From: Nanobdellota archaeon
Lineage (GTDB): Archaea > Nanobdellota > Nanobdellia > Woesearchaeales > UBA11576
Assembly (NCBI GenBank): GCA_042576705.1
Contig: JBHPEY010000001.1
Location: 1,045 to 65,044 of the forward strand
Length of the DNA: 64,000 nucleotides
Reading direction: 5' to 3'
The first letter of the stretch is position 1, and every line of letters starts with the position of its first letter. Below are positions 4,717-63,135 of the stretch, piece after piece. The notes under the pieces were generated by a model. It did no database searches. It saw nothing but the letters and a program-made list of their open reading frames with translations, and was not told the origin of the DNA. A program made the position numbers and the translations under genes.

Positions 4717-4744
4717 TGAGATAATTTTGTTTTGCTTTTTCTTT

Positions 4745-4818
4745 GATTCTTGATTCAGCTTTGGTTTTAGATGTAGCGGTTAGTTTGACAATATGTGTAG
4801 TATTAGCACCAAAGCTGA
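4745..4818 (+). repeat. module-A hairpin element (solo copy)
   Basis: The left arm gattcttgattcagctttggt and right arm gcaccaaagctga form an inverted repeat of about 11 bp around a roughly 40-nt loop containing gtttgacaat. It starts 29 nt after the stop of the upstream + strand gene. The same module occurs at 9441, 41335 and 62830. Confidence 0.7.
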
Positions 4819-5029
4819 TCTATCGTCCAGCGGTTTGACATGCGCGAAACCTTTTTCAGGATTCTACGGCTTAATCAAATAAGAATAAGGCCGCAACATC
4901 CCCAATCAGGCTTGCGCATTGTGGCGACTCAAGAATTCTTCCCAAATTTCGAGCCACATATGAATCTACTGGGCATCGCATTCAGATATTTAGGTCGAAA
5001 TTTGTTTATTTATCAAAAGAAAAAGTTCT

Positions 5030-9424: not shown

Positions 9425-9440
9425 TTTATTTTTCTTTTTT

Positions 9441-9734
9441 GATTCTTAATTCAGCTTTGGTTTCAGATGTAGATGTAGTCATGAAGACGGGGACAGAATG
9501 AGCACCAAAGCTGAGGTATCGTTCTGTAGTATTGGATGGAACAAGCCTGGTTGGGACGCGGTCACTACGCTGCGCTTCGTTCTGAGGTTAACAATCCCTG
9601 CGGGATTCTTAACAGACGCAGCTGCTTTATCTGAATTTATTTAGGCAGCAGCATAAGTAAAATAAACGATATAGGGAAAAAGGCCTTCGGCCTGAACGAA
9701 TGACAGACAGTCTTAGAACCTGAGTTCGTGGTGG
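9441..9734 (+). repeat. composite intergenic element (module A + GCTGC hairpin + module C)
   Basis: Module A arms lie at 9441-9461 and 9502-9514, followed by gtattggatgga-caagcctgg. A hairpin gctgctttat..ttaggcagcagc spans 9621-9652. Module C, aaacgatatagggaaaaaggccttcggcc..tgacagacagtcttagaacctgagttcgtggtgg, spans 9661-9734. The element begins 17 nt after the rpl15e stop. Confidence 0.8.
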
Positions 9735-9770
9735 TCTTGGACGCAGACTTCTTGGTCGCGACTAAATAAA

Positions 9771-24044: not shown

Positions 24045-24180
24045 CACGGAGGTTTTTGTGAAGCGTAGCGGAACAAAAACCGGAGCAGGCCTCGGATTTG
24101 CGTCCTGAAGAAGGAGTTTTCTGAATTCTTGTGCGGATCCTGTCGCTTTCAGTACAAAGCTTAAGACGACATCTTTGGAA

Positions 24181-24260
24181 AAAGGAACGATATAGGGGAA
24201 AAGGCCTGCGGCCAAAAACGATAGTCAGACAGTCTTAGAACTTGAGTGCTTGGTTGCAGC
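24181..24260 (+). repeat. module-C element (solo copy)
   Basis: aaaggaacgatataggggaaaaggcctgcggccaaaaacgatagtcagacagtcttagaacttgagtgcttggttgcagcg matches module C of the composite elements. Confidence 0.75.
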
Positions 24261-24288
24261 GGCCTGCTTCGTGGGAACAGCACCTGAG

Positions 24289-24510
24289 CTATCTGATTAT
24301 CCTCTCGATGATCCCGTGGCTATTACCTGTCGTTATCATCAATGCAGAGGAGAACGTGGCAATCATGTGCAGCTCTTTATGATAGGTGCCTGTCAGAAGA
24401 AATACCAACCACCAAACCAATAGTAGTGCACCTATCAATATCACTGCCTTGAATGCCTGTCCTGCTACCAACCCCCATTGGTAGCGTCTCACGTAGCTTG
24501 TTTCGGTCAT
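24289..24510 (-). CDS. possible small membrane protein
   Basis: This 73-aa ORF has one clear TM segment (AVILIGALLLVWWLVFLL). There is no homology evidence. Confidence 0.35.
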   Translation of the reverse strand: MTETSYVRRYQWGLVAGQAFKAVILIGALLLVWWLVFLLTGTYHKELHMIATFSSALMITTGNSHGIIERIIR

Positions 24511-24895
24511 AAAGAAAAGGATTCTGCTTGCACATAGAGGCTATGTGCAAGCAGGTCCAAACCACCCCCAAAGAGTATGAAAAAATTACACAACTTATCT
24601 TCTTTATGTGAGCATGAATGGGACCAAATTCGGTTCGAGGGGACCTCGAACCACCCCACCGTGCTTCTCATTTGACCTAAAACATCATAGGTGCATCTAG
24701 TATATAAAACTTCCGAATTTTCCCTCACTTCCGTAATTTCCTTTACTTGATTTGATGCTCTATACGGCTTTAGGTTGTGTTTTTGTGGTTTCGAAACCTT
24801 CACGAAATGAATGGGTATTTATAAATAGAAATTGAATTCAGTATAGGGATTTGGCTACTGTTTTAGGAGGTGTAACAAAAAGAAATTGGAAAACA

Positions 24896-24944
24896 ATGCA
24901 ACCGTTCGGTTGCAAGGTTGGCTGCGGTTCAAACCTTAGCCAAC
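24896..24944 (+). mobile_element. module-B two-hairpin mini-element (solo copy)
   Basis: The sequence is aatgcaaccgttcggttgcaaggttggctgcggttcaaaccttagccaac. Hairpin 1 is TGCAACC-gttc-GGTTGCA. Hairpin 2 is GTTGGCT...AGCCAAC with an inner GGT/ACC stem. The same unit occurs at 41493 and 62896. Confidence 0.6.
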
Positions 24945-24956
24945 TATTGAAAATAA

Positions 24957-25277
24957 TTATGCCTTGTTAGGCTCGTAACCTGCAGCTTCAAGTCCGCTCA
25001 GGTACTGCTGGATCTGCTGTTCATCATAGCAGCCATCCTGGAACACTACAGCGACTTCTTTGCCTCTCTTGATCCTTGCAGCGTATTCCTCACCACCGTT
25101 CTTGAAGTATATCGCCTTGTTGTCGATGCTAGGTTTCAGGCCTCTTCCCTGAAGATTCTTGATCGCTTCAAACTCCTTCTGCGAAAGTTCGCCGATGCAT
25201 CTCATTTGCATCATAGCCTTCGGTTTCAATGGCTGTATCTCTTGGTCATTTCTCCTCATCTCAAAACACCTCAACAC
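24957..25277 (-). CDS. hypothetical protein downstream of rps7
   Basis: This is a 106-aa ORF (alternative start MRRNDQ at 25259), 15 nt downstream of the S7 stop on the same strand. I recognise no motif. Confidence 0.5.
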   Translation of the reverse strand: MLRCFEMRRNDQEIQPLKPKAMMQMRCIGELSQKEFEAIKNLQGRGLKPSIDNKAIYFKNGGEEYAARIKRGKEVAVVFQDGCYDEQQIQQYLSGLEAAGYEPNKA

Positions 25278-33018: not shown

Positions 33019-33110
33019 CGGTTGCGCTTTAGTATTTTAAACGATATAAGGGAAGGCCTGCGGCCAAAAGATTGACAGACAGTCTTAGACATCAACTTCG
33101 TGGTTTTGGC
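33019..33110 (+). repeat. module-C element (solo copy)
   Basis: The sequence is ggttgcgctttagtattttaaacgatataagggaaggcctgcggccaaaagattgacagacagtcttagacatcaacttcgtggtt. Confidence 0.75.
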
Positions 33111-33180
33111 GAGGCAGACCTCTTGGCGGGTGTTTGTCTTCTTCGATAGATTTTTAAATCTGTACTGCGCTTGTCAGTCC

Positions 33181-35305: not shown

Positions 35306-35435
35306 GGTTGCGCTTCAGTAAAATAAACGATATACAGAAAAAGGGCCTGCGGCCAATAACTTTAGCCAGACAGTCTCAGCGAATCAGACTTCGTGGTTTA
35401 TCCAGACGTCTTAGACATTGGGTTCGTGGTGGCTA
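35306..35435 (+). repeat. module-C element with duplicated tail
   Basis: The head is gggttgcgcttcagtaaaataaacgatatacagaaaaagggcctgcggcc. Two tail copies follow: cagacagtctcag..cttcgtggtt and cagacgtcttagac..gttcgtggtgg. Confidence 0.7.
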
Positions 35436-35455
35436 GGCAGGGTGCGCGGGGCGGC

Positions 35456-41328: not shown

Positions 41329-41334
41329 TTTTTT

Positions 41335-41624
41335 GAATTCTTAATTCAGCTTTGGTATTTGTTGTAGAAGTTGGTTTGACAATAGATATTGTAGGAGCAC
41401 CAAAGCTGATCTGTCGTTTGGCGGTATTGGATGAGCCAAGCCTGGTGTGGGATTTTTTTGCTGCTTTAAGTGAATTTGATTAGGCAGCAGCCATTGCAAC
41501 CGTTCGGTTGCAGGGTTGTCTGCGGCTGACGCCTTAGCCAACTTTCGGTAAATGAACGATATAGGGAGGAGGGCCTTCGGCCAAATAGAATGACAGACAG
41601 TCTTAGAACCTGAGTTCTTGGGGG
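41335..41624 (+). repeat. composite intergenic element (A + GCTGC hairpin + inserted B + C)
   Basis: Module A arms lie at 41335-41356 and 41397-41409, followed by gtattggatgagccaagcctgg. The hairpin is gctgctttaag..ttaggcagcagc. Module B spans 41493-41542 and module C spans 41551-41624. The element starts 7 nt after the CYTH stop. Confidence 0.8.
41493..41542 (+). mobile_element. module-B two-hairpin mini-element (inside composite)
   Basis: The sequence attgcaaccgttcggttgcagggttgtctgcggctgacgccttagccaac lies between the GCTGC hairpin and module C. It is absent from that position in the copies at 9441 and 62830. Confidence 0.6.
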
Positions 41625-41644
41625 TGGCGGGTTATACAGAAAGC

Positions 41645-41652
41645 TTTAAAAA
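41645..41652 (+). promoter_or_regulatory. TATA-box candidate for tRNA-Tyr
   Basis: TTTAAAAA is centred about 28 nt upstream of tRNA position 1. Confidence 0.45.
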
Positions 41653-41676: not shown

Positions 41677-41836
41677 CCCTGCGTAGCATAATGGTGGTGC
41701 GTCCGGCTGTAGCTAATACAGCACCCGCAGACAAGGCACGTTGCCATGGAGGAAAGCGGGACAGCAGTCACCGGAAGGTTGCTGGTTCAAAACAGCGGAT
41801 CAGAAATGGTCTGTTGGGAGATTCCGGCCGCAGGGA
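41677..41836 (+). tRNA. tRNA-Tyr (anticodon GTA) with two introns (anticodon loop ~57 nt; T-loop ~31 nt)
   Basis: The acceptor is CCCTGCG/CGCAGGG with discriminator A, and the D arm is GCAT-AATGGTG-GTGC. The anticodon stem is TCCGG...CCGGA with loop CT-GTA-G[intron]A. The T stem is GCTGG/CCGGC enclosing TTCAAA[31 nt]T. Exons sum to 72 nt. Confidence 0.75.
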
Positions 41837-41837
41837 T

Positions 41838-41845
41838 GTTTTTTT
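41838..41845 (+). terminator. oligo-T terminator after tRNA-Tyr
   Basis: A run of 7 T immediately follows the discriminator base, matching the archaeal oligo-T termination signal. Confidence 0.5.
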
Positions 41846-42822: not shown

Positions 42823-42843
42823 CCGGCCGCAGGGATGTTTTTT
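42823..42843 (+). repeat. 21-nt direct repeat of the tRNA-Tyr 3' end plus trailer
   Basis: ccggccgcagggatgtttttt is identical to 41824-41844, which comprises the T-stem 3' strand, acceptor 3' strand, discriminator and oligo-T trailer of tRNA-Tyr. Confidence 0.7.
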
Positions 42844-44564: not shown

Positions 44565-44593
44565 GTCCTTCGCATTCTTTTTCTGTGTTCGAG

Positions 44594-45760
44594 ATGCCAG
44601 AAGAGAAGGAAAAGACCACGCAAGGGGATGCCATGCTCAAGTTATACATGACTGATGTAGGTGACTTTCCAGTCCTTCGCCGTGCGGAAGAGGTGGCACT
44701 GGCAAAGAAGATAGAGGATAGACACATGCGGTTGGTGTTTGATTTCTGCAGCTATCGGGGCCGGACAACACCTAGTTTTCCAGGCCTCTCTGTGCTGGAG
44801 GTCTCGTTGAGCAAAGCGTTTGAGGATGAAGGACAGCATCAGAGGTACAAGAATCTCAAGCGAAGGCTCGACTACAAGAAAAGGAAGTCTAATCTTGAAC
44901 AGATCTCAGCAGAGATATTCGCAATGATCCCTGAGCACCGCATCGAGATAGTCAGGTCTGCTGCAGAGTACGTGGTAAGGCATGATCAGGTAAACCACGA
45001 GCTTGTCAAGAGTTTGAGGGGCGACCTGAAAGCAGCATACAGTAGACGGAATGAGTTCGCGCAGTGCAACCTCAAGTATGTCATATCAATCGCAAAGAGG
45101 TTCCAGGGACGGGGCATTCTTCTGAAGGACCTTATCCAGGAGGGTAACATCGGCCTGCTGAAAGGCATCGACAGGTTCGATTACCGACTAGGATACAAGT
45201 TCTCAACATACGCGGCGTGGTGGATACGGCATGCGATGGGCAGGGCAATCGCAGACAAGGCACGTGCAGTGCGGCTTCCAGTCTATGTGACTGACTACCT
45301 GAACGACTGCAGGACCCATTATGGCAGACAGTTCAAGGCCCTGGGGAGGATTCCAACACCATATGAGGTGGTGGAAAGCATGATTGAAGGCAAACCCACC
45401 CAGAGACAGATCGACAAGTACATCGAGATGATGCAGGTCCCTACTGTCTACTCGTATGACGAGCCTGTCAATGACGAGGTTGGACATAGCTTCATGGACT
45501 TCCTTGGCGACACGTCTTTTGAGCATACTGTTGATGACATAGCCACGCAAGAGCTGTTCCAGAAAGTAAGAGCTGTGATGTCCAAAGTCCTCACATCCCG
45601 TGAGCGGGAGGTGTTGGAGAAACGGTACCTGCTCGATGAACCTCAGACCCTGAAACAGATAGCGCAGGTCTATGATCTCAGCAGGGAAAGGATACGGCAG
45701 CTGCAGGAGATAGCCCTTGAAAAGGTAAGGCGAAGGATGACAGGGTATAATATGAATTGA
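44594..45760 (+). CDS. bacterial-type RNA polymerase sigma-70 family factor (regions 1.2, 2, 3, 4)
   Basis: Region 1.2 is LKLYMTDVGDFPVLRRAEEVALAKKIE. Region 2 is NLKYVISIAKRFQGRGILLKDLIQEGNIGLLKGIDRFDYRLGYKFSTYAAWWIRHAMGRAIADKARAVRLPVYV. Region 4.2 is LTSREREVLEKRYLLDEPQTLKQIAQVYDLSRERIRQLQEIALEKVRR. The track start at 44585 is GTG. Confidence 0.9.
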   Translation: MPEEKEKTTQGDAMLKLYMTDVGDFPVLRRAEEVALAKKIEDRHMRLVFDFCSYRGRTTPSFPGLSVLEVSLSKAFEDEGQHQRYKNLKRRLDYKKRKSNLEQISAEIFAMIPEHRIEIVRSAAEYVVRHDQVNHELVKSLRGDLKAAYSRRNEFAQCNLKYVISIAKRFQGRGILLKDLIQEGNIGLLKGIDRFDYRLGYKFSTYAAWWIRHAMGRAIADKARAVRLPVYVTDYLNDCRTHYGRQFKALGRIPTPYEVVESMIEGKPTQRQIDKYIEMMQVPTVYSYDEPVNDEVGHSFMDFLGDTSFEHTVDDIATQELFQKVRAVMSKVLTSREREVLEKRYLLDEPQTLKQIAQVYDLSRERIRQLQEIALEKVRRRMTGYNMN

Positions 45761-54015: not shown

Positions 54016-54065
54016 GAAGAGAGGCATTACGCGGCCCTTCCGCCGCTTTTTGGGGATTTGATAGG

Positions 54066-54175
54066 GCGGCAACTTCAGTAAAAGGAACTATATCAGGAGA
54101 GTGGCCTGCGGCCTAAAACGATACGCAGATAGTCTTAGAACCTGACTGAGTGGTTGCAGCGACATGGTTCGTGGT
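54066..54175 (+). repeat. module-C element (solo copy)
   Basis: The sequence is gcggcaacttcagtaaaaggaactatatcaggagagtggcctgcggcctaaaacgatacgcagatagtcttagaacctgactgagtggttgcagcg. Confidence 0.7.
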
Positions 54176-54439
54176 TCTGATGGCTCGGGGCTTGATTGCT
54201 GCTGGCTGGGATCGTGATGGCTCAGTTCGTGATTGGCACGGTTTTTTGGTGGAGGCCAGACCCTCTGTAGCCCCTGATAACGCTGTTTTCATAGGTCTTA
54301 GCTGTATTAACAGAAACCTTTTTAAAGGACCAAATTTTAGGTGCGATATGGTCATTAAACCTTTCTACGGCAAATGAGTGCCAAATTGCAGAGTTAACAC
54401 GCGGTAGAGGGAGTACTGGCTTATTCAGCAAAAAAAGGA

Positions 54440-54591
54440 GCCCTGGTAGTGTAGTGGCCTATCATGAAGCCCTGTCGAGGCGTTATGGACAGCATATTAG
54501 CTGTTTCTATCGCCGCATAAAGGCTTCGACCCGGGTTCGACATAAAATGGGTGAAACAGCCCGTTTTCAAACGAAAATCCCGGCCAGGGCG
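54440..54591 (+). tRNA. tRNA-Asp (anticodon GTC) with two introns (anticodon loop ~43 nt; T-loop ~36 nt)
   Basis: The acceptor is GCCCTGG/CCAGGGC with discriminator G, and the D region GTGTAGTGGCCTATCAT is as in archaeal tRNA-Asp. The anticodon stem is AAGCC...GGCTT with CT-GTC. The T stem is CCGGG/CCCGG enclosing TTCGA[36 nt]AT. Exons sum to 73 nt. Confidence 0.8.
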
Positions 54592-54593
54592 TA

Positions 54594-54599
54594 TTTTTT
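54594..54599 (+). terminator. oligo-T run after tRNA-Asp
   Basis: TTTTTT lies 3 nt after the discriminator base. Confidence 0.45.
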
Positions 54600-54627
54600 G
54601 CTTGAAACACTAACATAATGGTCAAAC

Positions 54628-54765
54628 AGGCCGGTAGCTCAGCCTGGAGGAACAAAAACATTTTTCCGGGCAATAGAGCACTCGACTTTTACCTTTCGAG
54701 GAAGAAATCGAGTGGTCGCGGGTTCGAAACAACCTGATAAGGTTGCGCAAGTCCCGTCCGGCCTA
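54628..54765 (+). tRNA. tRNA-Lys (anticodon TTT) with three introns (D-loop ~26 nt; anticodon loop 15 nt; T-loop 23 nt)
   Basis: The acceptor is AGGCCGG/CCGGCCT with discriminator A. The D arm is GCTC-AGCCTGG[26 nt]TA-GAGC. The anticodon arm is CTCGA-CTTTTA[15 nt]A-TCGAG. The T arm is GCGGG-TTCGAA[23 nt]T-CCCGT. Exons sum to 74 nt and introns to 64 nt, giving 138 nt in total. Confidence 0.8.
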
Positions 54766-54790
54766 CTTTAATAGTTCAGGGGAGAAGAAA

Positions 54791-62810: not shown

Positions 62811-62829
62811 TTGTGTGGTTTGATTTGTT

Positions 62830-63135
62830 GATTCTTAATTCAGCTTTGGTGTTGGTAGCTGATGTTAGTTTGACAATGGATGCATGATTCGCACCATTGC
62901 AACAGGTCTGTTGCAGGGTTGTCTGCGGCTAAAGCTTTAGCCAACCAAAGCTGATGTAACATTGGTCAGTATTGGATGGAGCAAGCCTGATTAGGGAATT
63001 TTTTGTTTTTGCTGCTTTATGTGGATTCGTTCAGGCAGCAGCGTCTGCTAAATGAACGATATAAGGAAGAAGGCCTGCGGCCAAAAAAGATACGCAGATA
63101 GTCTTAGAACTTGACATCGTGGTGTTGCGGCAGGA
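62830..63135 (+). repeat. composite intergenic element (A interrupted by B, + GCTGC hairpin + C)
   Basis: The module A left arm lies at 62830-62850. The right arm is split as gcacc[50-nt module B]caaagctga (62891-62954). gtattggatggagcaagcctga follows, then the hairpin gctgctttatg..caggcagcagc and module C aaatgaacgatataaggaagaaggcctgcggcc..cagatagtcttagaacttga. The element starts 20 nt after the nusA stop. Confidence 0.8.
62896..62945 (+). mobile_element. module-B two-hairpin mini-element nested inside module A
   Basis: The sequence attgcaacaggtctgttgcagggttgtctgcggctaaagctttagccaac interrupts the otherwise contiguous gcaccaaagctga arm seen in three other A copies. Confidence 0.6.

What the first reader, a model, noticed from the sequence alone, without database searches (positions are those of the whole stretch)
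62896..62945. A 50-nt two-hairpin mini-element (module B) that inserts independently and shows compensatory base changes
Module B, (c)attgcaacc-gttc-ggttgca-gg-gttg(g/t)ct-gcgg....cc-tt-agccaac, occurs three times in three different contexts:
- A solo copy lies at 24896-24944.
- One copy lies between the GCTGC hairpin and module C at 41493-41542.
- One copy lies inside the right arm of module A at 62896-62945. There it splits the otherwise invariant gcaccaaagctga into gcacc[B]caaagctga.

The composite at 9441 has no B at all. B has therefore moved on its own and can nest in other repeats.

Both hairpins show covariation between copies. Hairpin 1 is TGCAACC/GGTTGCA in two copies and TGCAACA/TGTTGCA in the third, a C:G to A:T double change. 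The inner stem of hairpin 2 is GGT/ACC, GGC/GCC and GGC/GCT, a T:A to C:G change plus a G:T wobble. That pattern argues for selection on the folded structure, whether RNA or single-stranded DNA.

An element this small with no terminal inverted repeats does not fit the MITE types I know.

Speculative side note: the T-loop intron of tRNA-Lys (aCAACCtgataaGGTTGCgcaag) contains a hairpin with the same CAACC/GGTTGC stem. This could be chance.
Basis: seen in the sequence. Interest (0 to 1): 0.65.

Follow-up and report, generated by a model that had tools for sequence, protein, structure and literature searches.

The report
51-nt two-hairpin insertion module in archaeal repeats
A 51-base DNA segment that folds into two small hairpins has been copied into three unrelated non-coding spots of a tiny (DPANN/Woesearchaeota-type) archaeal genome, twice inside a larger repeat, so it looks like a new small hairpin-type mobile repeat akin to bacterial REP/BOX modules; how it moves is still unknown.

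Summary
Module B is a 51-nt unit present three times in the window, always on the + strand: 24894-24944, 41492-41542 and 62895-62945. Copies are 80-88% identical, and similarity stops sharply at both ends.

- **Insertion.** Deleting B from two composite repeats restores gap-free alignment with B-less paralogues. The solo copy sits at the edge of a non-coding block that is conserved in the closest relatives, which lack B.
- **Ends.** B has no terminal inverted repeats and no shared target duplication. No bulge-helix-bulge motif lies at its ends, no Rfam family matches, and no transposase gene lies in the 64 kb.
- **Structure.** Both hairpins are predicted in every copy. Two stem pairs changed compensatorily. 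This is suggestive (simulation P about 0.007) but not significant in the tool's shuffle test (57/500), and two copies carry a U·C mismatch.
The nested copy does not break hairpin A. A 4-nt ACCA repeat at the junction regenerates the stem arm.
- **Distribution.** The whole repeat system is lineage-specific and absent from relatives and from the collection scans that could be interpreted.

Best reading: a small non-autonomous hairpin insertion module, like REP/BIME or BOX-boxB in behaviour and probably moved at the DNA level. It is a new family of a known kind, resting on only three copies.

The parts
62895..62945 (+). Module B copy 3 (the finding): 51 nt, nested at the 3' edge of the loop of hairpin A
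   Evidence: 78.1 bits; deleting it restores collinearity with B-less composites
62897..62916 (+). B3 hairpin 1: UGCAACA/UGUUGCA stem plus a U·G pair, loop GGUC; carries the C:G to A:U compensatory change at the loop-closing pair
62918..62945 (+). B3 hairpin 2: outer stem with U·C mismatch, invariant G·U, 1x1 C/U internal loop, and inner 3-bp stem GGC/GCU
   Evidence: as single-stranded DNA an alternative GGCTAA/TTAGCC hairpin is preferred
41492..41542 (+). Module B copy 2, inserted directly after the GCTGC hairpin (GGCAGCAGC|B|TTTCGG) and before module C
   Evidence: (80.5 bits)
24894..24944 (+). Module B copy 1, solo; 12 nt from the stop codon of the minus-strand ORF 24957-25277 and abutting a conserved non-coding block
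   Evidence: 80.7 bits; absent at the orthologous site of L122/L123
62840..62954 (+). Hairpin A of the host composite: arms TCAGCTTTGGT (62840-62850) and ACCAAAGCTGA (62944-62954); the right arm overlaps the last 2 nt of B3
62816..63133 (+). Host composite repeat (A, B3, GCTGC hairpin 63011-63042, module C) between the nusA stop (62810) and the stop of the minus-strand DUF7670 gene (63180); holds the empty paralogous site for B2 at 63042|63043
   Evidence: relatives have only 15 nt between these two genes
41329..41632 (+). Composite repeat carrying B2; holds the empty paralogous site for B3 (GCACCAAAGCTGA at 41397-41409)
9427..9742 (+). B-less composite, empty at both B sites (9502-9514 and 9652|9653); carries a different, unique hairpin insertion of about 65 nt at 9553-9620
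24512..24891 (-). Conserved non-coding block next to B1 (TATA-like boxes, 14-bp terminal hairpin 24524-24554, T-run); it defines the orthologous empty site
   Evidence: no Rfam match

Best explanation
Module B is a 51-nt non-autonomous insertion module belonging to a lineage-specific system of mosaic intergenic repeats in a Woesearchaeota-type (DPANN) archaeon.

**Shown.**
- B is a sharply bounded unit that entered at least three unrelated non-coding sites. These are the loop edge of hairpin A, the 3' foot of the GCTGC hairpin, and the spacer between a stop codon and a conserved promoter/non-coding block.
- It has no terminal inverted repeats and no shared target duplication.
- All copies lie on the same chromosome strand, whichever way neighbouring genes are transcribed.
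- All copies keep two hairpins.

**Inferred.**
- B is copied at the DNA level as a hairpin-forming single strand. The G-rich + strand would be the lagging-strand template.
- The copying enzyme acts in trans and is encoded outside this window. The most likely candidate is a Y1 HUH transposase of the IS200/IS605-RAYT type, which mobilises REP/BIME units in bacteria.
- The hairpins are the recognition structures. Stem complementarity is retained because unfoldable copies cannot be recognised or copied.
- Any effect on neighbouring transcripts (stability, termination) would be secondary.

**Likelihoods.** I put about 0.7 on 'independently inserted hairpin module' and about 0.3 on the specific Y1-transposase route. 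The confidence given is for the combined statement.
For: - **Real, bounded unit.** Three copies where 0 are expected by chance. The boundaries are sharp and ungapped over 51 nt.
- **Paralogous filled and empty sites.** With B deleted, composites 41329, 62816 and 9427 align without gaps at both B positions.
- **Orthologous empty site.** In relatives L122/L123 the conserved block starts 2 nt after the stop codon. In the window, 12 nt plus B1 lie in between. The B model finds nothing there.
- **Not moved by homologous exchange.** B2 and B3 have no shared flanks.
- **Younger or more constrained than its hosts.** B2 and B3 match at 45/51. Host composite windows reach at most 43/51, with a mean of 38.8.
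- **Structure.**
  - The same two hairpins are the minimum-energy fold in all copies, with z-scores -6.0, -3.0 and -2.1.
  - RNAalifold predicts the same hairpins.
  - There are two compensatory pairs and one G:C to G·U change.
  - In simulation, P(at least 2 compensatory pairs) = 0.0066, and about 1e-4 when also requiring no more than 3 broken cells.
- **Orientation.**
  - All 9 repeat loci in the window are on the + strand.
  - B1 is antisense to its minus-strand neighbours, including the rps12 and rps7 genes. B2 and B3 are sense to their upstream genes.
  - The + strand is G-rich even at third codon positions of minus-strand genes.
- **Recent, lineage-specific expansion.**
  - Relatives with 80-89% identical NusA or S7 have no modules.
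  - Scans of metagenome contigs found 0 hits.
- **Enzyme plausibility, from the literature.**
  - IS200/IS605 is the most widespread IS family in archaea (PMC13343696).
  - K07491 (REP-associated tyrosine transposase) was the only transposase KO with strict hits in 256 Nanobdellota proteomes (bioRxiv 10.64898/2026.05.13.725050).
  - REPs include both short hairpins and long hairpin-bulge-hairpin forms (PMC6006769).
Against: - Only three copies, from 64 kb of a single genome.
- No transposase, integrase or HUH gene was found among about 65 ORFs scanned in the window.
- The canonical REP tag GT[AG]G is absent.
- B has only 2 nt before hairpin 1 and 0 nt after hairpin 2. This is tighter than IS608-type ends, whose cleavage sites lie 10-19 nt from the hairpins (my own knowledge).
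- The two hairpins differ in sequence, whereas one transposase usually recognises similar left and right hairpins.
- No conserved target sequence could be established. Left flanks are AAAA, CAGC and GCAC; if 'CA' belongs to the target rather than the element they read AACA, GCCA and ACCA.
- As single-stranded DNA, hairpin 2 does not adopt one common fold on the + strand. As RNA it does.
- Covariation is not significant in the tool's shuffle control (57/500).
- The link between GC skew and replication direction is an inference.
Confidence: 0.5

Rival explanations
1. B is a functional structured RNA module, either a cis-acting stabiliser or processing signal or a small RNA. It would be kept by selection on the RNA fold, and it appears in several places because the host repeats are transcribed and the module was recruited by duplication.
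For: - As RNA on the + strand, all three copies share the identical two-hairpin minimum-energy fold. As single-stranded DNA they do not.
- G·U pairs (31:44 in all copies, 3:22 in two, 33:42 in one) work only on the + strand, and the minus-strand folds are weaker.
- There are two compensatory pairs.
- B2 and B3 lie downstream of +-strand genes.
Against: - B1 is antisense to every neighbouring transcription unit, so B's orientation follows the chromosome strand and not the direction of transcription.
- No promoter or T-run is associated with B consistently.
- No Rfam family matches.
- B is absent from relatives even where the flanking non-coding block is conserved, so it is not an old functional part of that locus.
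- Two of three copies have a U·C mismatch inside the main stem.
Confidence: 0.15
2. No dedicated mobility system exists. B was copied between loci by replication template switching or microhomology-mediated repair at hairpin-induced fork stalls. The same process (quasi-palindrome correction) produced the 'compensatory' changes.
For: - B3's junction has 4 nt of microhomology (ACCA on both sides).
- Insertions lie next to other hairpins.
- Template switching is documented to create and maintain perfect stems and apparent compensatory substitutions (PMC8794818).
- No transposase gene lies in the window.
Against: - Three events would each have copied exactly the same 51 nt with identical boundaries. 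This is unexpected for untargeted template switches.
- B2 shows at most 1 nt of junction microhomology.
- Template switching does not explain the uniform orientation of all nine repeat loci.
Confidence: 0.15
3. B is an ancestral part of the composite repeat that most copies lost by precise deletion, rather than an insertion.
For: The ACCA direct repeat flanking B3 could mediate a precise 51-nt slippage deletion.
Against: - B occupies two different positions in the composite and one site outside any composite. The ancestor would need two B copies plus several independent exact deletions.
- The B2 site has no flanking direct repeat.
- B copies are more alike than their hosts.
- Relatives lack B at the B1 locus.
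Confidence: 0.05
4. B is an archaeal-type mobile intron, cut out by the splicing endonuclease at bulge-helix-bulge motifs and related to the T-loop intron of tRNA-Lys.
For: - The genome has multi-intron tRNAs. tRNA-Lys(TTT) at 54628-54766 is recognised only after three introns are removed.
- Its T-loop intron shares the CAACC/GGTTGC stem with hairpin 1 of B1 and B2.
Against: - A BHB scan that recovers the canonical tRNA-Lys intron (H = 4, L = 7, R = 2) finds no 4-bp central helix with flanking helices at B's ends. This holds for any boundary shift that removes exactly 51 nt, and no arrangement is shared by the three copies.
- The shared stem is a single extra match where 0.14 are expected by chance.
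- B1 lies in no recognisable RNA gene on its own strand.
Confidence: 0.02

Closest known systems
Pneumococcal BOX elements, especially the boxB module (Croucher et al. 2011, PMC3049150)
   Same: - Both are composite intergenic repeats built from modules, with an optional internal module of about 45-50 nt.
- That module folds on its own and can be present or absent without disturbing the rest.
- The repeats are enriched between convergent genes and insert into one another.
- The mobilising enzyme is uncertain, and no clear target duplication was seen for some families.
   Different: - boxB sits at one fixed position between boxA and boxC, often in tandem arrays. B is single-copy, occupies two different positions in the composite, and also occurs alone.
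- BOX elements have terminal inverted repeats (boxA/boxC ends) that resemble ISSpn2. B has none.
- BOX is bacterial and has no sequence relationship to B.
REP / BIME / REPIN elements mobilised by RAYT (TnpA-REP) (PMC6006769, PMC3733652, PMC3116915)
   Same: - Both are small imperfect-palindrome units with no inverted terminal repeats and no target duplication.
- Both include short hairpins and long hairpin-bulge-hairpin forms.
- Both assemble into mosaic clusters, are species-specific, and contain conserved mismatches in stems.
   Different: - B has no GT[AG]G or CGTC tag at the hairpin foot.
- B's two hairpins are head-to-tail and dissimilar. REPINs are inverted doublets of one REP.
- The associated transposase is not known for B.
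- B is from an archaeal (DPANN) host.
- Only 3 copies have been seen so far.
IS200/IS605-derived miniature elements (palindrome-associated transposable elements, PATEs) and single-strand 'peel and paste' transposition
   Same: - Both have subterminal hairpins instead of inverted repeats, and no target duplication.
- Both show strand-specific orientation tied to the replication strand.
- IS200/IS605 is the commonest IS family in archaea (PMC13343696).
   Different: - At 51 nt, B is far smaller than known IS200/IS605 ends, which need guide and cleavage sequences 10-19 nt outside the hairpins (my own knowledge).
- No conserved target tetranucleotide has been demonstrated for B.
- No parent IS with matching ends is known.
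Archaeal BHB introns at non-canonical tRNA positions (proposed to transpose between tRNA genes)
   Same: - Both are short structured inserts that can be removed precisely.
- The same genome has three-intron tRNAs.
- One stem sequence is shared with an intron.
   Different: - B has no bulge-helix-bulge motif at its ends.
- B's hosts are intergenic repeats, not known RNA genes.
- The stem similarity is compatible with chance.

Membership tests
Classical MITE | Terminal inverted repeats | tested here: not met
   The ends CATTGCAAC... and ...AGCCAAC are not complementary to each other. Each end belongs to its own hairpin.
Classical MITE | Target-site duplication of fixed length flanking every copy | tested here: not met
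   Only B3 has a flanking repeat (ACCA). B1 and B2 have none.
REP/BIME (RAYT-associated) | Imperfect palindrome of 20-65 nt forming a short hairpin or a hairpin-bulge-hairpin | tested here: met
   Hairpin 1 has a 7-8 bp stem and a 4-nt loop. Hairpin 2 has an 8-bp basal stem, a 1x1 internal loop and a 3-bp stem. Definition taken from PMC6006769.
REP/BIME (RAYT-associated) | GT[AG]G (or CGTC) tetranucleotide 0-2 nt 5' of the hairpin foot | tested here: not met
   The sequences 5' of the two hairpin feet are CA(T/A) and GCA(G/A)G. On the minus strand the hairpins begin GTTG and TGCAAC. No GTAG, GTGG or CGTC is present.
REP/BIME (RAYT-associated) | A cognate RAYT gene in the genome, usually flanked by the repeats | not testable with these tools
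   None lies in the 64-kb window. The rest of the genome could not be retrieved.
IS200/IS605-derived miniature element | Hairpins at both ends, with no inverted repeats and no target duplication | tested here: met
IS200/IS605-derived miniature element | Insertion 3' of a conserved tetra- or pentanucleotide | tested here: inconclusive
   Left flanks are AAAA, CAGC and GCAC. If the conserved 'CA' is target rather than element they become AACA, GCCA and ACCA. Three sites cannot decide this.
IS200/IS605-derived miniature element | Orientation tied to the replication strand (active strand on the lagging-strand template) | tested here: inconclusive
   All 3 B copies and all 9 repeat loci lie on the G-rich + strand. 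No origin or terminus lies in the window to show a switch.
Pneumococcal BOX (boxB-like module) | An optional internal module of a boxA...boxC composite, at a fixed position and often tandemly repeated | tested here: not met
   B is optional and folds independently. However, it occupies two different positions plus a solo site and is never tandem.
Archaeal BHB intron | Two 3-nt bulges separated by a 4-bp helix at the two boundaries | tested here: not met
   The positive control recovers the canonical tRNA-Lys intron 54692-54706. No such motif occurs at B's ends in any copy.
Integron attC site | RYYYAAC ... GTTRRRY cores at the two ends pairing into one long hairpin, arranged in cassette arrays | tested here: not met
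   B's two ends do not pair with each other. B forms two separate hairpins, and its copies are 17-21 kb apart among housekeeping genes.
Any Rfam RNA family | Match to a curated covariance model | tested here: not met
   At the gathering threshold the window gave only one tRNA. Permissive searches over the B loci gave only chance-level miRNA or sRNA hits with E > 0.4.

The most novel reading that the evidence does not exclude
B would be the smallest self-contained mobile DNA unit yet seen, and the first REP/BIME-like element in DPANN archaea. It is 51 nt long and consists of two dissimilar hairpins with essentially no flanking sequence. In this reading it is copied as single-stranded DNA on the lagging-strand template by an as-yet-unidentified archaeal enzyme. 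It would be part of a recent burst of mosaic hairpin repeats in an otherwise streamlined symbiont genome. The same hairpin stock might also seed the non-canonical tRNA introns of this lineage.
Probability: 0.12. Interest if true: 0.7.

Novelty: new member of a known kind. Interest (0 to 1): 0.4.

Why it matters
- DPANN archaea have tiny, streamlined genomes. My paper searches turned up no description of small interspersed hairpin repeats in them.
- A lineage-specific burst of mosaic repeats with a nested 51-nt module implies an active DNA-copying mechanism in such a genome. It gives a concrete substrate for finding the enzyme, for example an archaeal RAYT-like Y1 transposase.
- Practically, these repeats are insertion markers that separate close Woesearchaeales lineages. 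They can also confound gene and ncRNA calling in intergenic regions.
- The case for anything beyond 'a new family of hairpin repeat' rests on three copies, so its importance depends on a whole-genome census.

Tried and rejected
1. **Genome-contig scan.** The 17-base core GTTGCANGGTTGNCTGCGG was too loose.
2. **Metagenome-contig scans.** A strict B pattern and a module C pattern both gave 0 hits.
3. **Viral-contig scans.** Patterns for B hairpin 2, B hairpin 1, module C and hairpin A gave only chance matches in coding DNA or nothing.
4. **Look-ups of window proteins** (NusA, L15e, L30e) to reach the rest of the contig returned nothing on record.
5. **Relatives.** NusA and S7 homologues are 80-89% identical (loci L112-L116, L122, L123). 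They have no A, B or C modules and no interspersed repeats of their own.
6. **Rfam**, at gathering and permissive thresholds, gave nothing.
7. **Half copies or degenerate copies of B.** None found.
8. **Bulge-helix-bulge intron model.** Rejected.
9. **Link to the tRNA-Lys intron.** It cannot be distinguished from chance.
10. **attC, T-arm-like and C/D-box readings.** Rejected on inspecting the sequence, because the required motifs are absent or not conserved across copies.
11. **A 4-nt target duplication (ACCA).** It holds only for B3.
12. **Transposase, HUH or integrase genes in the window.** None among about 65 ORFs.
13. **B as an intrinsic terminator.** T-runs follow only the reverse complement of B1. 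Those T-runs are native to the locus, because they are conserved in relatives that lack B.
Full report
**1. What is there**

A degenerate pattern for B matches exactly three places, all on the + strand, with none expected in shuffled sequence.

- B1 at 24894-24944
- B2 at 41492-41542
- B3 at 62895-62945

Forty of 51 columns are invariant. The copies differ at 7 (B1-B2), 10 (B1-B3) and 6 (B2-B3) positions. Similarity ends abruptly at both edges and the flanks are unrelated. A covariance model built from the three copies and run over the whole window without filters finds only these three. Motif scans find no isolated hairpin 1 or hairpin 2.

**2. Organism and setting**

The window comes from a DPANN archaeon of the Woesearchaeota/Woesearchaeales type.
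- It encodes archaeal ribosomal proteins (L15e, S7, S12), RNA-polymerase subunits upstream of nusA, and a NusA-like KH protein.
- The best NusA relatives are labelled Candidatus Woesearchaeota. The closest is 89% identical for NusA and 80% for S7.

B belongs to a richer system of intergenic repeats:
- a hairpin 'A' (TCAGCTTTGGT...ACCAAAGCTGA)
- a GCTGC hairpin
- a module 'C' (AACGATATAGGG...GGCCTKCGGCC...CAGACAGTCTTAGAAC)

These occur alone or as composites of about 260 nt at nine loci, and every one is on the + strand.

**3. Is B an independent insertion?**

Five lines of evidence say yes.

- *Paralogous empty sites.* When B is deleted in silico, the composites at 41329, 62816 and 9427 align collinearly with no gap at either B position. 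B2 and B3 are therefore exact 51-nt additions at two different places in the same scaffold. The paralogous empty sites are GCACCAAAGCTGA (41397-41409, 9502-9514, 4806-4818) and GGCAGCAGC|N (63042|63043, 9652|9653).
- *No homologous transfer.* B2 and B3 share no flanking sequence. Homologous recombination or gene conversion between composites therefore cannot have transferred B from one site to the other.
- *Relative age.* B2 and B3 are identical at 45 of 51 positions. No 51-nt window of their host composites exceeds 43, and the mean is 38.8. The composites overall are 70-75% identical. B is therefore either younger than the duplication of its hosts or more constrained.
- *An orthologous empty site for the solo copy.* The closest S7 relative lies on syntenic JGI contigs L122 and L123.
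  - A non-coding block of about 380 nt next to B1 (window 24891 down to 24512, minus strand) is conserved there at 74-90% nucleotide identity.
  - In the relatives this block begins 2 nt after the upstream stop codon.
  - In the window the stop codon is followed by 12 nt, then B1, then the conserved block.
  - The B model finds nothing in those contigs.
- *The host composites are also lineage-specific.* In relatives L115 and L116 the nusA stop and the stop of the convergent DUF7670 gene are 15 nt apart. In the window they are 369 nt apart and the composite fills the gap.
  - Relatives carry no modules and no interspersed repeats of their own in 20-kb samples.
  - The composite at 9427 carries a different, unique hairpin insertion of about 65 nt at a third position (9553-9620). 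Small hairpin inserts into this scaffold are therefore not unique to B.

**4. A correction about the nested copy**

By alignment that is true. However, the junction reads gc[ACCA]TTGC...AGCCA[ACCA]aagctga, so the last two bases of B plus the flank regenerate the complete right arm ACCAAAGCTGA (62944-62954). In the predicted fold the 11-bp A stem is intact, and B sits at the 3' edge of A's loop.

The 4-nt repeat could be a target duplication, microhomology or coincidence. B1 and B2 have nothing comparable, so there is no family-wide target duplication. There are also no terminal inverted repeats, because each end of B belongs to its own hairpin.

**5. Structure and covariation**

As RNA on the + strand, all three copies give the same two-hairpin minimum-energy fold.
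- Energies are -26.9, -22.5 and -19.9 kcal/mol, with z-scores of -6.0, -3.0 and -2.1 against shuffles.
- The minus-strand folds are 2-3.5 kcal/mol weaker, because three G·U positions become A·C.
- RNAalifold independently returns the same hairpins.

Of 19 pairs:
- two show compensatory changes (10:15 C:G to A:U in B3; 35:40 U:A in B1 versus C:G)
- one shows G:C to G·U
- pair 28:47 is U·C in B2 and B3
- pair 3:22 is A·A in B1

The tool's column-shuffle control is not significant (57/500). A star-tree simulation with the observed number of substitutions per copy gives P = 0.0066 for two or more compensatory pairs. It gives about 1e-4 when also requiring no more than three broken cells.

The structure was derived from the same three sequences, so these numbers are indicative only. 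As single-stranded DNA, hairpin 1 is robust, but hairpin 2 folds differently in the three +-strand copies. Replication template switching is known to create and maintain stems and to produce apparent compensatory substitutions in one step (PMC8794818). The pattern therefore does not by itself prove selection on an RNA.

**6. Tests of specific identities**

- *Bulge-helix-bulge intron.* I coded the canonical motif (3-nt bulges, 4-bp helix) and checked it on the tRNA genes at 54440-54770. It recovers the canonical intron of tRNA-Lys (54692-54706; H = 4, L = 7, R = 2). After three introns are removed, ARAGORN calls tRNA-Lys(TTT). At B's ends, no arrangement with a 4-bp central helix and flanking helices exists for any boundary shift that removes exactly 51 nt. 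None is shared by the three copies.
- *The tRNA-Lys T-loop intron.* It shares the CAACC/GGTTGC stem, but this is one extra match where 0.14 are expected by chance.
- *Rfam.* Nothing at gathering or permissive thresholds.
- *REP.* The hairpin architecture fits the published definition, which covers both a short hairpin and a hairpin-bulge-hairpin (PMC6006769). The GT[AG]G or CGTC tag is absent.
- *attC.* The ends do not pair with each other and there is no cassette array.
- *Mobilising enzyme.* About 65 ORFs of the window were scanned against Pfam. None is a transposase, integrase or HUH protein.

**7. Orientation**

All nine repeat loci, including the three B copies, are on the + strand, in convergent, tandem and divergent gene contexts.
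- B1 is antisense to everything around it. The rps12-rps7-ORF106 genes, the conserved non-coding block and a small membrane-protein ORF are all on the minus strand.
- B2 and B3 are sense to their upstream genes.
- Orientation therefore follows the chromosome strand, not transcription.
- The + strand is G-rich over most of the window, including at third codon positions of minus-strand genes (+0.047) as well as +-strand genes (+0.177).

By analogy with bacteria and single-origin archaea, this suggests the + strand has the leading-strand sequence and is therefore the lagging-strand template. That is the strand used by IS200/IS605-type single-strand transposition (PMC6006769). This step is inference.

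**8. Most likely mechanism**

B behaves like a miniature non-autonomous hairpin element of the REP/BIME or BOX-boxB kind. It is a self-folding module that is added to intergenic DNA and to other repeats without inverted repeats or target duplications, in a fixed strand orientation.

The most economical mechanism is DNA-level copying of the hairpin-forming strand by a trans-acting Y1 HUH enzyme encoded elsewhere in the genome. Two literature points support its plausibility:
- IS200/IS605 is the most widespread IS family in archaea (PMC13343696).
- K07491 (REP-associated tyrosine transposase) was the only transposase orthologue with strict hits across 256 Nanobdellota proteomes (bioRxiv 10.64898/2026.05.13.725050).

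Against this reading:
- no enzyme is in hand
- the REP tag is missing
- the two hairpins are dissimilar
- B is much more compact than known IS200/IS605 ends

The rivals, in order of likelihood, are a functional RNA module, enzyme-independent template switching, an ancestral module lost by deletion, and a BHB intron. The first two remain open and the last two are disfavoured.

**9. Limits**

- Everything rests on three copies in 64 kb of one genome.
- The window's own contig is not retrievable.
- The metagenome and viral collections contain no B or C modules.

**10. Verdict**

The covariation argument is suggestive but underpowered, and the splicing idea is not supported. B is best filed as a new family of small hairpin interspersed repeat in a DPANN archaeon. 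It works like REP/BIME or boxB modules but fails the defining sequence features of each, so it is not a member of those families. Interest is moderate.

Noticed in passing
window 54441-54592 and 54628-54766 (+): Two tRNA genes with multiple introns were missed by ARAGORN and Rfam. tRNA-Lys(TTT) has a D-loop intron (about 24 nt), a canonical 37/38 intron (54692-54706) and a T-loop 59/60 intron (54729-54751). ARAGORN calls it only after all three are removed. The upstream gene looks like tRNA-Asp(GTC) with anticodon-loop and T-loop introns (read by eye only).
   Followed up: partly
window 24512-24891 (-), orthologue L122 6281-6640: A non-coding block of about 380 nt is conserved at 74-90% nucleotide identity with the closest relatives. 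That is as conserved as, or more than, the neighbouring proteins. It has two TATA-like boxes, frame-breaking indels, and a terminal 14-bp hairpin (24524-24554) with a compensatory A:T to G:C change, followed by a T-run. No Rfam match was found. It is a candidate unknown ncRNA or leader of the small membrane-protein ORF 24289-24510(-).
   Followed up: partly
window 44585-45760 (+): An ORF of 391 aa has strong Pfam matches to bacterial sigma-70 regions 1.2, 2 and 4 (E = 7e-19 for region 2) in an otherwise archaeal gene context. It is possibly a horizontally acquired bacterial-type sigma factor.
   Followed up: no
window 4738-4863, 9427-9742, 24142-24261, 33026-33111, 35312-35379, 41329-41632, 54037-54161, 62816-63133 (all +): A lineage-specific mosaic repeat system (hairpin A, GCTGC hairpin, module C) is present at eight loci, nine counting solo B1, all in one orientation. 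The GCTGC hairpin itself shows a compensatory variant (GCCGC/GCGGC at 54042-54070, read by eye). The system is absent from relatives. The nusA-DUF7670 spacer is 15 nt in L115/L116 versus 369 nt here.
   Followed up: partly
window 9553-9620 (+): A unique hairpin-rich insertion of about 65 nt (including GTTAACAATCCC-TGC-GGGATTCTTAAC) lies in the composite at 9427, at a third position, replacing the T-run that other composites have there. No other copy exists in the window.
   Followed up: partly
window 35360-35440, 54116-54250, 9700-9765, 33075-33125 (+): Short sub-repeats of the form CAGAC-N-TCTTAG ... TTCGTGGT recur two or three times downstream of module C. Their meaning is unknown.
   Followed up: no
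window 41824-41844 and 42823-42843 (+): A 21-nt exact repeat was found by BLAST on either side of the inositol-monophosphatase-family gene. The first copy lies by a T-run at the end of a non-coding stretch of about 190 nt. That stretch begins after a TATA-like box (around 41642-41652) resembling the one at about 54310-54322 upstream of the tRNA genes.
   Followed up: no
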